Assembly (NCBI RefSeq): GCF_009914755.1 | Contig: NC_060931.1 | Reading direction: 5' to 3' (one strand) | Length of the DNA: 64,000 nucleotides | Source: the human T2T-CHM13v2.0 reference genome, Homo sapiens | Shown: piece after piece, positions 7,660 to 27,409 of the stretch | Layout: the number at the start of each line of letters is the position of its first letter | How positions within the stretch are numbered: the first letter of the stretch is position 1 | Made by a program: the position numbers and the translations under genes | Notes under the pieces: model-generated | What the model was told of the DNA's origin: nothing | Seen by the model: the letters and a program-made list of their open reading frames with translations, nothing else | Database searches by the model: none

Positions 7660-8416
7660 GAGTTTTGCCACATCTGCAAGAATAACGATCATACTCAGTA
7701 ATCAGACTGCTGGCATTCCGGAGAATGTTGACATCACTCTTAAGGAAGGCCTAGTTATTTTGAAGGGGCCCTGAGAAACTCTGTTGAGGGACTTTAATTA
7801 TGTGAATATAGAACTCGGTCTCTTTGGTGGATGGGGGGAAGAAAGGTAGAGGCTCCAGCTTGACAAATGGCAGGGAAATAGAAAGAAACTGGCTACAGTG
7901 CACACTATCTGTGGCCATCCACAGAGCTTGATCAACGTGTTACAGTGAGCTTCCATTACAAGAAGAGATCTGTGCATGCTTACTTTCCCATCAATGTCAT
8001 TTTTCAGGAGAATGGGTCTCTTGTTGAAATTCAAAATTTCTTAGTGAAAAATGCATCCACAAGGTTCAGGTGAGGCTGGGTGTTGCTTGTTTAATATCTC
8101 AAACCCAGAAAAATGAGTTAATTCTGGAAGAAAATGACATTGAACTTATATCAAAGTCTGTTGCTTTGATTCAGCAAGCCACAACAGTTAAAAACAGAAA
8201 TCAGGAAAATTGTGGATGGTATCTACATCTTTGAAAAAGGAACAGTTTAGCCCCCTGAGAAGTAAAGCCTAAAAGTTGTCCAGCTTAGGAAACAAAATGC
8301 TGATTCCTCAAATCCATTTATGACGTTTTAAAGATTTAACAAAAACCCTCTACTGAAAAAGAAAACAAACAACAACAACAACAAAAACACACACACAAAA
8401 AACCAAGCAACCAACT
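7660..8416 (+). pseudogene. RPL9: Processed pseudogene of 60S ribosomal protein L9 (uL6)
   Basis: Manual translation from 7682 gives [48 protein letters not shown] versus RPL9 [49 protein letters not shown]. Later blocks [64 protein letters not shown] and [11 protein letters not shown] also match. Intronless, ATG>ATA, TGA at 7772, frameshifts, end of former CDS at 8265, A-rich tail about 8356-8416. Confidence 0.95.
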
Positions 8417-24803: not shown

Positions 24804-25649
24804 TATTATTCAAGTTACATATAAGTGTGAATTTTTGTTCAGTGGCAATTCCATTTAGAGTACTATTTATGTACCAGCAAAAAATATATAAACTATGTTT
24901 GATTTTAGAAATTAAAATATGATAGGCTATTTAATTTTATCTGAAAAATTACAACTTGCATAGAAACAGACATTATAAAGAGGACCCTGGAGACTAAGTT
25001 ACAGGACACATACTAATTAATTTTAAAATTCAGTTAAATGATGACAGCACTTCACATAAACACATAACAATATAAAGTGAGAACTGTAACTGTTCTTTCT
25101 TTCAATATTTAAATAAATCAAAGTTTGCATTTATAGAAATAAAGTAACAGAAAACAGAAGTTACAGATCTGTGATACTGGCCAGAGAGGAGAGATGAAAA
25201 ACAGACTAGGTACCATTTTAAAGTCTTGGACTGTGTAGTAGGCATCTTCCTACTCCCATCCATTCTTCCTGCTTCCTATTACTAAATAAATAAGTAAAGA
25301 TACTCTCACCATACATTTTCTTGCCAAGCAAACTTTGTGTTTTACTACTTATACTAAAATGAATAAATCCTGAAATTTTTTCACTATTAAAAGTTCTAGA
25401 TGTGTCCTGATCTACCTTTTTAATAATTTTGACTTACTACTTACTGTACCAAAAAAAATTCTCAGATGGTTCTATTTGTTATTCCCCAATACCTTCCTCT
25501 CATTTCAGCTTTGTTTATGCCAGACATGTAGTGTTGTAATGCACATTAAGTCCTCCTTACCACATATCTTCAATCAAAACCCACTCTCTTCTTCAAGTAT
25601 ATGTTCAAATTCAGCCTCAAACATAAAAAGCCTTCTTTTTTTTTTTTTT

Positions 25650-25760
25650 CACACCAATTATCATGAGCTTTTAATTAATCTCTCAAGCAGGGAATAACCA
25701 TCAGCACATTAATTAATTGGCTTTTTCCTTATATTTGAATATTATCAAATTTTAACATTC
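25650..25760 (-). other. Putative L1 3'-transduced segment
   Basis: Non-L1 111 bp between two poly(A) tracts, inside the TSD, with ATTAAA (plus-strand tttaat 25670-25675) 20 nt before the distal poly(A). Confidence 0.85.
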
Positions 25761-25762
25761 AT

Positions 25763-25793
<31 letters not shown>

Positions 25794-26731
25794 TTTTCTT
25801 TTTTTTTATTATACTTTAAGTTTTAGGGTACATGTGCACATTGTGCAGGTTAGTTACATATGTATACATGTGCCATGCTGGTGCACTGCACCCACTAACT
25901 CGTCATCTAGCATTAGGTATATCTCCCAATGCTATCCCTCCCCCCTCCCCCCACCCCACCACAGTCCCCAGAGTGTGATATTCCCCTTCCTGTGTCCATG
26001 TGATCTCATTGTTCAATTCCCACCTATGAGTGAGAATACGCGGTGTTTGGTTTTTTGTTCTTGCGATAGTTTACTGAGAATGATGGTTTCCAGTTTCATC
26101 CATGTCCCTACAAAGAACATTAACTCATCATTTTTTATGGCTGCATAGTATTCCATGGTGTATATGTGCCACATTTTCTTAATCCAGTCTCTCATTGTTG
26201 GACATCTGGGTTGGTTCCAAGTCTTTGCTATTGTGAATAATGCCGCAATAAACATACGTGTGCATGTGTCTTTATAGCAGCATGATTTATAGTCCTTTGG
26301 GTATATACCCAGTAATGGGATGGCTGGGTCAAATGGTATTTCTAGTTCTAGATCCCTGAGGAATCGCCACACTGACTTCCACAATGGTTGAACTAGTTCA
26401 CAGTCCCACCAACAGTGTAAAAGTGTTCCTATTTCTCCACATCCTCTCCAGCACCTGTTGTTTCCTGACTTTTTAATGATCGCCATTCTAACTGGTGTGA
26501 GATGATATCTCATAGTGGTTTTGATTTGCATTTCTCTGATGGCCAGTGATGATGAGCATTTTTTCATGTGTTTTTTGGCTGCATAAATGTCTTCTATTGA
26601 GAAGTGTCTGTTCATGTCCTTTGCCCACTTTTTGATGGGGTTGTTTGTTTTTTTCTTGTAAATTTGTCTGAGTTCTTTGTAGATTCTGGATATTAGCCCT
26701 TTGTCAGATGAGTAGGTTGCAAAAATTTTCT
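25761..26731 (-). mobile_element. Young 5'-truncated L1 (L1PA2-type) with ORF2 C-terminal remnant (26013-26615)
   Basis: Near-consensus L1 3' end; ORF reads MNRHFS...[16 protein letters not shown]...[10 protein letters not shown]; 3'UTR has gatgacGAGttagtggg and aaacttAaagtat (not the Ta ACA/G alleles); TSD aacataaaaagccttctt at 25620-25637 and 26736-26753. Confidence 0.96.
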
Positions 26732-27409
26732 TCGCAACATAAAAAGCCTTCTTGATTGACTTGGCCAGTTCATTATTCTGAGCACTTGTTGTGTACCATT
26801 TCTAGCACTTTCCCTGTATAACCTAGTATATTTTGGTTTATATATTTACTCAACTGCACTGTTAATTTTATGGAAAGGAGTACCATCAAGATTTTAACAC
26901 CTCTAAATTCCCCTCAGTATTAAAGTCATATTCTATGGAAAAAATGTGGATGAAACAATGGATTGTTCTTGAATGCCTCTGAATAGCTTGATTCCATGAC
27001 TCTCATCATAAATGAAGGTCTCAAAATTTTATACTTACAATGTTTATGGTCTTGGCTACTATCAAAATCCATTTATATTCAAACTTTCCAAAGAAATTAG
27101 CCGTAGACGAATATTCCTGGGGCTCCTGCTTTCCCTTCTTAGTTTGCATCTTCAGTCACACTTCACACTACCTTTAGCTATTTTTTAATCACCCTTTATC
27201 ACCTCAGTTTGTTTCTCCATCAACAAACCTTTGTTACATTCCTGTATTTACATGAAAGAAATGTCCAATTTCCTCAACCTACTTTCTTGGTCTTATAATC
27301 ACTTTATTAGGTAGTTCAGCTTCTTCCCAACCTCTTATCCTTTCAGCCTAATTGGTCTATTCCTTTTCACAATTCAACTATTTTTACAAAATAAACATTT
27401 CCCATTAAA

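What the first reader, a model, noticed from the sequence alone, without database searches (positions are those of the whole stretch)
25620..26753. L1PA2-type insertion carrying a 3' transduction
Seen: the 18-bp TSD aacataaaaagccttctt (25620-25637 and 26736-26753) does not abut the L1 tail. On the minus strand the order is TSD, truncated L1, A-rich tail (25761-25807), 111 bp of non-L1 DNA (25650-25760), a second pure poly(A) (25636-25649), TSD. The extra DNA has ATTAAA exactly 20 nt before the second poly(A), and the target reads TCTT/GA, close to the L1 endonuclease consensus TTTT/AA. Established: read-through of the weak L1 poly(A) signal mobilises downstream flank. Inference: the 111 bp tags the source L1 elsewhere in the genome, and a repeat masker would leave it as unique sequence.
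Basis: partly seen in the sequence, partly recalled or inferred. Interest (0 to 1): 0.8.

Follow-up and report, generated by a model that had tools for sequence, protein, structure and literature searches.

The report
L1 insertion with parentless 3' transduction
A truncated young L1 retrotransposon on chromosome 7 carried along about 111 bases from chromosome 5, but the chromosome 5 site holds no L1 in this genome, so the parent copy seems lost; this is an ordinary, known kind of event.

Summary
An exact 18-bp target-site duplication (25620-25637 and 26736-26753) encloses, on the minus strand, in this order:
- 4 filler bases
- 924 nt of L1 3' end
- a 47-nt patterned A-rich tail
- 111 nt of non-L1 DNA
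- a pure A run

ATTAAA lies 20 nt before the second poly(A).

The held T2T genome has exactly one other copy of the 111 nt, at G000:C5:165674616-165674726, in the same orientation as the L1. The homology is 119 nt with one mismatch. It stops at the poly(A) site and starts at a perfect L1 endonuclease site, TT/AAAA.

The chr5 locus has no L1. No young sense-strand L1 3' end lies within 70 kb upstream or 20 kb downstream.

Best reading (0.85): a true 3' transduction whose parent L1 was an unfixed allele, now absent from this haplotype. This "parentless" configuration has been described in dogs.

The 3'UTR trinucleotide is GAG, meaning L1PA2 or older. The closest copies are 97-98.5% identical.

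This is an ordinary kind of event and of low interest. Ape and pangenome alignments were not available.

The parts
25620..25637 (.). Target-site duplication, copy next to the 3' end of the insertion (18 bp)
   Evidence: Exact 18-nt direct repeat, family D2. It occurs only twice in the window, and the chance expectation is 1.3e-4.
25638..25649 (-). Terminal pure poly(A). It is 12 nt outside the TSD, and the T-run spans 25636-25649 if the 2 TSD bases are counted.
   Evidence: Read directly. chr5 reads AAG at this point, so at most 2 of the A could be templated.
25650..25760 (-). Transduced non-L1 DNA, 111 nt. BLAST homology to chr5 spans 25648-25766 (119 nt, 1 mismatch).
   Evidence: The only other genomic match is G000:C5:165674616-165674726 at 99%. 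Alignment A1 shows the boundaries.
25670..25675 (-). ATTAAA poly(A) signal in the transduced DNA, 20 nt upstream of the terminal poly(A)
   Evidence: The only AATAAA/ATTAAA hexamer in the 129-nt segment. Also read.
25761..25807 (-). Internal A-rich tail of the L1: A9 G A4 GT A5 (TAAA)6 AT. The last TAAAAT is also present at chr5.
   Evidence: Read directly and in alignment A1.
25808..26731 (-). 5'-truncated L1, the last 924 nt (end of ORF2 plus 3'UTR). Its own AATAAA is at 25810..25805, and the 3'UTR trinucleotide is GAG.
   Evidence: 97.1-98.5% identity to the 29 related L1 copies examined, out of 2842 first-look candidates. The meaning of GAG comes from PMC7026601 passages.
26732..26735 (-). 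4 extra bases (GCGA in L1 sense) at the 5' junction, not matching L1
   Evidence: All 39 non-self alignments start at query base 5. 29 of 29 related copies read ATGGG before AGAA.
26736..26753 (.). Target-site duplication, copy next to the 5' end of the insertion (18 bp). It is followed by GA, so the nick site on the + strand is TCTT/GA.

Best explanation
This is one L1 retrotransposition event by target-primed reverse transcription, carrying a 3' transduction. A GAG-type (L1PA2-like) L1 once sat in sense orientation on chromosome 5, inserted at the TT/AAAA site just before G000:C5:165674616. Transcription ran through its weak AATAAA and its genomic A-rich tail. The transcript was cleaved and polyadenylated about 117 nt further on, 20 nt after an ATTAAA. 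L1 endonuclease nicked chr7 at TCTT/GA, and reverse transcription started on the new poly(A). The copy was 5'-truncated after 924 nt of L1. Four untemplated bases and an 18-bp target-site duplication completed the insertion. The parent L1 is not present at chr5 in this haplotype. Most likely it was a polymorphic allele that never became fixed, which makes this a 'parentless' transduction. Shown: the anatomy, the single chr5 origin of the 111 nt, the boundaries of the homology, and the absence of an L1 there. Inferred: that an L1 once occupied the chr5 site, and that it was lost by drift.
For: Structure:
- An exact 18-bp TSD encloses the whole unit (chance expectation 1.3e-4).
- The order is L1 3' end with AATAAA, A-rich tail, non-L1 DNA, then a second pure A run that directly abuts the TSD.
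- The only ATTAAA in the segment lies 20 nt before that A run.

Origin of the 111 nt:
- It has exactly one other genomic match, chr5, at 99% and in L1-sense orientation (2 of 2 candidates scored).
- 1.2 kb around that chr5 site is otherwise single copy. It matches the window only over 119 nt, corresponding to 25648-25766.
- The homology ends exactly where the A run begins, and chr5 continues with unrelated sequence.
- The homology begins at cagTT/AAAATG, which is the perfect bottom-strand 5'-TTTT/AA site. This is where the 3' TSD of a parent L1 should begin.
- TTAAAA occurs at 0.0017 per base in the 70 kb of chr5, and P(TT before AAAA) = 0.09.

Against a second nested event:
- No second TSD pair is present. 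The terminal A run is pure and contains none of the (TAAA) pattern.

Precedent:
- An insertion with a 3' transduction typically has two A stretches and carries the source's 3' TSD (PMC4859970 passages).
- Transduced DNA mapping to a place without an adjacent LINE-1 is a described 'parentless' state. It was found for 17 of 18 dog transductions (PMC7980453 passages). In a second dog data set, only 3 of 27 lay within 50 bp downstream of a reference LINE-1 (PMC13141329 passages).
Against: - The feature that would clinch a transduction, an L1 directly upstream of the source sequence, is absent. No L1 is seen in the 1.5 kb upstream.
- No young sense-strand L1 3' end lies in 70 kb upstream or 20 kb downstream. 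The only pieces found are old and on the minus strand: 73.8% over 130 nt in L003, 92.5% over 938 nt in L043 (about 57 kb away), and an 85% piece in L042. There is also a 34-nt match in L007.
- No sibling insertion shares the 111 nt.
- No close sibling L1 was found. The two copies that share this copy's private variants are only 95.5% and 92% identical overall.
- The start of homology falls in A-rich sequence, where microhomology could also place a template switch. The TT/AAAA site is therefore only modest support.
- Patterned (TAAA)n tails also occur on ordinary related copies (L015, L020, L030, L032). The patterned inner tail therefore does not prove that it was DNA-encoded in a parent.
- L1PA2 members are thought to be mostly fixed (PMC7026601 passage). 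An unfixed parent has to be assumed.
Confidence: 0.85

Rival explanations
1. Chimeric retrocopy by template switching. L1 reverse transcriptase primed on a polyadenylated, L1-independent transcript from chr5. It copied the last ~117 nt, or reached the 5' end of a very short RNA, and then jumped onto the poly(A) end of an L1 RNA. This would give L1-tail-X-poly(A) inside one TSD pair without any L1 ever sitting at chr5.
For: The chr5 locus has no L1. The junction lies in A-rich sequence (TAAAAT shared), which would favour a microhomology-guided switch onto a poly(A) tail. Chimeric L1-mediated insertions such as U6-L1 are documented (PMC4859970 passages).
Against: In the documented chimeras, U6 lies 5' and the L1 or Alu lies at its 3' end. 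That is the reverse of the order here. This model needs an unannotated transcript ending at this site and a trans-mobilised first template. It also leaves unexplained the TT that completes a perfect TT/AAAA endonuclease site at the homology start (P about 0.09 given AAAA). Read-through transductions are common, in about 25% of insertions by the abstract of PMC13009371 (listing). Parentless ones are the majority in the dog data sets.
Confidence: 0.08
2. Two separate events. An ordinary L1 insertion came first. Later, a short 5'-truncated processed retrocopy of a chr5 transcript landed in the last bases of the L1's A-rich tail, in the same orientation.
For: A-rich tails resemble L1 endonuclease target sites (from established knowledge, not tested here). 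The chr5 locus has no L1.
Against: A second event should leave its own TSD, normally 7-20 bp (a recalled range; the review says 4-20 bp). The sequence 5' of the 111 nt is (TAAA)n-patterned. The A run 3' of it is pure and abuts the outer TSD directly. Any inner TSD could therefore be at most about 4 A. The second insertion would also have to hit a window of a few bases in the right orientation.
Confidence: 0.03
3. The parent L1 lies far upstream on chr5, and the read-through transcript was spliced onto the 117-nt terminal exon. chr5 reads ...cttcag just before TTAAAATG.
For: An AG dinucleotide precedes the homology start on chr5.
Against: No sense-strand young L1 3' end lies within 70 kb upstream. 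The region before the AG has no pyrimidine tract. The window reads A, not T, at the first exon base this model requires. The L1 tail is joined directly to the segment.
Confidence: 0.02

Closest known systems
Classical L1 3' transduction (read-through of the L1 poly(A) signal; Moran 1999, Goodier 2000 and Pickeral 2000 as cited in the papers read; features from PMC4859970 passages)
   Same: Two A stretches, non-L1 DNA between them, a downstream poly(A) signal, a single TSD pair, an endonuclease-like target, 5' truncation, and transduced DNA that maps uniquely elsewhere.
   Different: The source locus carries no L1 in this assembly, so parent and offspring cannot be paired.
'Parentless' LINE-1 3' transductions in dogs (PMC7980453, PMC13141329; passages read)
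   Same: The transduced sequence aligns to one place that is not adjacent to a LINE-1. This is explained there by a parent that is dimorphic in the population.
   Different: The dog cases are recent dimorphic insertions from a currently active family. This one is a GAG-type (L1PA2 or older) human copy, so the parent allele is more likely extinct than still segregating. Whether the chr7 copy is itself polymorphic was not testable here.
Orphan 3' transduction from a non-reference L1 (Solyom et al.; seen only as a reference title and a table row; the paper itself was not held)
   Same: The title says the insertion was created by a non-reference L1.
   Different: An orphan transduction lacks L1 sequence altogether. 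Here 924 nt of L1 and its tail are retained.
U6-L1 and other chimeric retrocopies formed by template switching (Buzdin et al., as cited in PMC4859970)
   Same: Two RNA-derived parts inside one TSD pair with one terminal poly(A).
   Different: In those chimeras the L1 or Alu part is the 3' part and the other RNA lies 5'. Here the L1, with its own tail, is the 5' part.

Membership tests
L1 3' transduction | One TSD pair encloses L1, tail, extra DNA and second poly(A) | tested here: met
   Exact 18-bp repeat at 25620-25637 and 26736-26753. It is the only such pair in the window, with chance expectation 1.3e-4.
L1 3' transduction | L1 3' end with its own poly(A) signal and A-rich tail, followed by non-L1 DNA and a second A run | tested here: met
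   The L1 identity of 25808-26731 was shown by 97.1-98.5% matches to the 29 related L1 copies examined.
L1 3' transduction | Poly(A) signal in the extra DNA 10-30 nt before the second A run | tested here: met
   ATTAAA at 25675..25670, 20 nt upstream, the only such hexamer in the segment.
L1 3' transduction | Extra DNA maps to a unique locus elsewhere, collinear, in L1-sense orientation, ending at the poly(A) site | tested here: met
   A single match at G000:C5:165674616-165674726, 99%. 119 nt of homology with sharp ends.
L1 3' transduction | A sense-oriented L1 lies directly upstream of that sequence at the source locus | tested here: not met
   No L1 in the 1.5 kb upstream. No young sense-strand L1 3' end in 70 kb upstream or 20 kb downstream. 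This holds for this one haplotype only, and a dimorphic or lost parent is a described state.
L1 3' transduction | The transduced DNA starts with the parent's 3' TSD, that is, at an L1 endonuclease site of the source locus | tested here: inconclusive
   Homology starts at cagTT/AAAATG, which is a perfect TTTT/AA on the bottom strand. Without the filled allele the TSD itself cannot be seen.
L1 3' transduction | Endonuclease-type target at the insertion site | tested here: met
   TCTT/GA on the + strand. Similar variants, TCTT/AT and TTTT/GA, are listed for proven L1-mediated insertions (PMC4859970 table rows).
L1 3' transduction | The orthologous empty site in outgroups has one TSD copy and neither the L1 nor the extra DNA | not testable with these tools
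   No primate assemblies are held. Only the window's own genome could be searched.
L1PA2 subfamily | 3'UTR trinucleotide GAG (not ACA of Ta or ACG of pre-Ta) | tested here: met
   The window copy reads GAG after CTAGATGAC. GAG is 'indicative of L1PA2 or older' (PMC7026601 passage).
L1PA2 subfamily | Full set of diagnostic positions against the curated subfamily consensus (separating L1PA2 from L1PA3 and older) | not tested
   No repeat library is on hand. Indirect evidence only: 97.1-98.5% identity to the 29 best copies. Of these, 13 are GAG, 6 ACA, 3 ACG, 2 AAG, and 5 lack the motif. 15 of 924 sites differ from the commonest state among these 29.
Template-switch chimeric retrocopy | Second RNA fused 5' of an L1/Alu 3' part. 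In the U6 cases the passage read says only that an L1 or Alu is fused at the 3' end of U6. | tested here: not met
   Here the L1 is the 5' part and keeps a 47-nt tail. The order in known chimeras comes from PMC4859970 passages.

The most novel reading that the evidence does not exclude
The chr7 copy is the only surviving trace in this genome of an active L1PA2-era progenitor at 5q34 that never became fixed. Its position, orientation, tail pattern and the start of its TSD can be read from the offspring. The same parent allele might survive in another ape lineage through incomplete lineage sorting, or as a rare human allele. A bolder and less likely reading is that no parent ever existed, and the structure records L1 reverse transcriptase jumping from a short non-L1 polyadenylated RNA onto an L1 RNA tail. 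That orientation of chimera was not mentioned in the passages I read.
Probability: 0.1. Interest if true: 0.45.

Novelty: new member of a known kind. Interest (0 to 1): 0.2.

Why it matters
It matters little beyond annotation. The locus is a clean textbook example of an L1 3' transduction. It adds 111 nt of chr5-derived sequence to chr7 that a repeat masker only partly covers (77 of the 111 nt unmasked). The one point of some value is that the source locus is empty in a complete telomere-to-telomere haplotype. That illustrates, for an older human subfamily, that the L1 copies which produced surviving offspring were often unfixed alleles that have since disappeared. The 111 nt gives an exact address (C5:165674615/165674616, + strand) at which ape and pangenome assemblies can be checked for that lost parent.

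Tried and rejected
- Sibling transductions: none. The 111 nt and a 1.2-kb chr5 probe each found only the two loci.
- Junction probe (window 25740-25840): it returned nothing, not even itself, because simple or common words are skipped. This is uninformative.
- Lineage tracing by private variants. Three sites are private among the 29 related copies. Probes over them found C13:60033305 (100% of 61 nt; 40 of 723 candidates scored) and C5:154261681 (99% of 141 nt; 40 of 476 scored). Over the whole fragment these copies are only 92.0% (478 nt) and 95.5% (924 nt) identical. They are therefore older copies, not siblings.
- Distant parent plus splicing: rejected for the 70 kb upstream that could be examined. 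A 20-kb request then passed.
- Patterned inner tail as proof of a DNA-encoded tail: dropped as weak, because ordinary related copies also show (TAAA)n tails.
- Literature. Szak 2003, Pickeral 2000 and Solyom 2012 are not held. I therefore could not see how often human reference transductions lack a parent, or whether this locus is already catalogued. Supplements were not opened. Searches were not aimed at this locus, and I make no claim that it is unpublished.

Full report
**What is there.** The 18-mer AACATAAAAAGCCTTCTT stands at 25620-25637 and again at 26736-26753. The repeat finder reports it as an exact two-copy family with spacing 1116 (D2). It occurs nowhere else in the 64-kb window. 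About 1.3e-4 exact 18-mer pairs are expected by chance in the 1601 bp examined. The bases just outside the two copies differ, so the duplication is exactly 18 bp.

Between the copies, read on the minus strand, lie:
- 4 bases, GCGA (26735..26732)
- 924 nt of L1 3' end (26731..25808), with the element's own AATAAA at 25810..25805
- a 47-nt A-rich tail, A9 G A4 GT A5 (TAAA)6 AT (25807..25761)
- 111 nt of non-L1 DNA (25760..25650)
- a pure A run (12 nt outside the TSD; the T-run on the + strand is 25636-25649)

ATTAAA at 25675..25670 lies exactly 20 nt before that A run. It is the only AATAAA/ATTAAA hexamer in the segment. The nick site on the + strand reads TCTT/GA.

**The L1 part.** A search of the window's own genome with the 928-nt fragment scored 40 of 2842 first-look candidates. 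All 39 non-self alignments begin at query base 5. In 29 of the 29 related copies fetched, the L1 reads ATGGG before AGAAAATTTT, where the window reads GCGA. The 4 bases at the 5' junction are therefore filler, not L1.

The 29 copies are 97.08-98.49% identical to the window copy over about 924 nt. The window copy carries GAG at the diagnostic 3'UTR trinucleotide. Among the 29 related copies, 13 are GAG, 6 ACA, 3 ACG, 2 AAG, and 5 lack the anchor motif. According to passages of PMC7026601, ACA marks L1Hs-Ta, ACG marks pre-Ta, and GAG is indicative of L1PA2 or older.

The window copy differs from the commonest state among these 29 at 15 of 924 L1 sites, and 3 of those sites are private. The related copies are the best-scoring ones, so this sample is biased. 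Being about 97.5% identical to ACA and ACG copies fits L1PA2 better than an older subfamily. That is an inference; no curated consensus was available.

**Where the 111 nt comes from.** The complete T2T assembly containing the window is held. The 111 nt has exactly two matches in it: itself, and G000:C5:165674616-165674726 on the opposite strand at 99% (2 candidates, both scored). The L1-sense orientation therefore corresponds to the chr5 + strand.

A 1201-nt chr5 probe around the site is single copy. Its only other match is 119 nt to C7:9077648-9077766, which is window 25648-25766, at 99%. The pairwise alignment shows TAAAAT, then the 111 nt, then AA shared, with one mismatch (G in the window, C on chr5). 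Homology stops exactly where the window's A run begins; chr5 continues GACTTTTCAT. Homology starts where chr5 reads cagTT/AAAATG. On the bottom strand that is a perfect 5'-TTTT/AA, the L1 endonuclease consensus, and it is exactly where the 3' TSD of a parent L1 should begin. In the 70 kb of chr5 examined, TTAAAA occurs at 0.0017 per base, and TT precedes AAAA in 9% of cases.

**The parent is missing.** None is there. The 1.5 kb upstream on chr5 reads as unique sequence. blastn of the window L1 against 50 kb upstream and 20 kb downstream found only two hits:
- a 73.8% match over 130 nt, on the minus strand
- a 34-nt match

A further 20 kb upstream holds an old 5'-truncated L1 3' end, 92.5% over 938 nt, about 57 kb away and on the minus strand. 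It also holds an 85% L1 piece, again on the minus strand. Neither could read through towards the site.

No sibling insertion carries the 111 nt. Probes over the three private variants led to two copies. Over the whole fragment these are only 92.0% and 95.5% identical, so they are not siblings.

**Interpretation.** The simplest account is still a 3' transduction:
- a transcript that began in an L1 at the chr5 TT/AAAA site
- read-through of the L1's AATAAA and its genomic tail
- polyadenylation 20 nt after ATTAAA
- insertion at chr7 by target-primed reverse transcription, with 5' truncation, 4 filler bases and an 18-bp TSD

The review PMC4859970 (passages) gives the expected signature: two A stretches, with the source's 3' TSD inside the transduced DNA.

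A source locus without an L1 is a described state. [quoted passage not shown] In a later data set only 3 of 27 lay within 50 bp downstream of a reference LINE-1 (PMC13141329 passages). The authors explain this by parents that are dimorphic in the population. For a GAG-type human element the parent allele is more likely extinct than still segregating. L1PA2 is thought to have amplified mostly before the human-chimpanzee split (PMC7026601 passage).

**Dating (inference, with recalled rates).**
- 1 difference in 119 nt between offspring and source flank
- 0 differences in the 18-bp TSD pair
- 3 to 15 differences in 924 nt of L1

These counts are compatible with an insertion a few million years old. 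With one substitution, the interval is very wide.

**Rivals.**
- *Template-switch chimera.* Reverse transcription starts on an L1-independent chr5 RNA and jumps to an L1 RNA tail. This needs no parent L1 and fits the A-rich junction. But documented chimeras have the opposite order of parts. It needs an unknown transcript, and it leaves the TT of the endonuclease site to chance. I give it 0.08.
- *A second, nested retro-insertion into the L1 tail.* This should have left its own TSD. The 3' A run is pure and abuts the outer TSD, so any inner TSD could be at most about 4 A. I give it 0.03.
- *A distant parent with splicing.* There is no sense-strand L1 within 70 kb, no pyrimidine tract before the AG, and a mismatch at the first required base. 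I give it 0.02.

I dropped one argument. The patterned inner tail does not prove a DNA-encoded tail, because ordinary related copies also show (TAAA)n tails.

**Verdict.** This is a new instance of a well-known kind of event, of low interest (0.2).

The decisive tests could not be run here. They are alignments of the chr5 and chr7 sites in ape and human pangenome assemblies, and a look for L1-independent transcripts ending at the chr5 poly(A) site. Szak 2003, Pickeral 2000 and Solyom 2012 were not held, and supplements were not opened. I therefore cannot say whether this locus is already catalogued.

Noticed in passing
L011 (G000:C17:12357449-12358372, minus strand), just 3' of the L1: The closest relative of the window's L1 (98.5%, GAG type) ends in an A-rich tail. 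This is followed by about 38 nt that look like a piece of an Alu (a recalled resemblance) and then about 22 A. It may be a very short transduction or a chimeric tail.
   Followed up: no
L026 (G000:C5:102644551-102645473) and L033 (G000:C1:33696306-33697230), 3' tails: Both related L1 copies show two A runs separated by a few non-A bases (for example GAACAGC before a run of about 22 A). These may be very short transductions or tail rearrangements.
   Followed up: no
window 25727-25760: NCBI's repeat mask (25727-26735, from the hub's note) extends 34 nt into the chr5-derived segment although this DNA is not L1. The remaining 77 nt (25650-25726) are unmasked.
   Followed up: partly
L043 2394-3510 (about G000:C5:165617009-165618125, minus strand) and L042 2-1222: Old 5'-truncated L1 pieces (92.5% and 85% to the probes) lie about 57-70 kb upstream of the chr5 source site. 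Both are antisense to the direction of the inferred read-through.
   Followed up: yes
window 26676 and 26596 (L1 fragment positions 60 and 140); L041 (G000:C5:154261681-154261821): At least one of two variants that are private among the 29 close related copies recurs in a copy that is only 95.5% identical overall (a 141-nt probe over both matched it at 99%). They may be retained older states or parallel changes rather than post-insertion mutations.
   Followed up: partly
window 7679-8349: The hub's table lists RPL9P19, a processed ribosomal-protein pseudogene, in the same window. It is another L1-mediated retrocopy nearby. I did not examine it.
   Followed up: no
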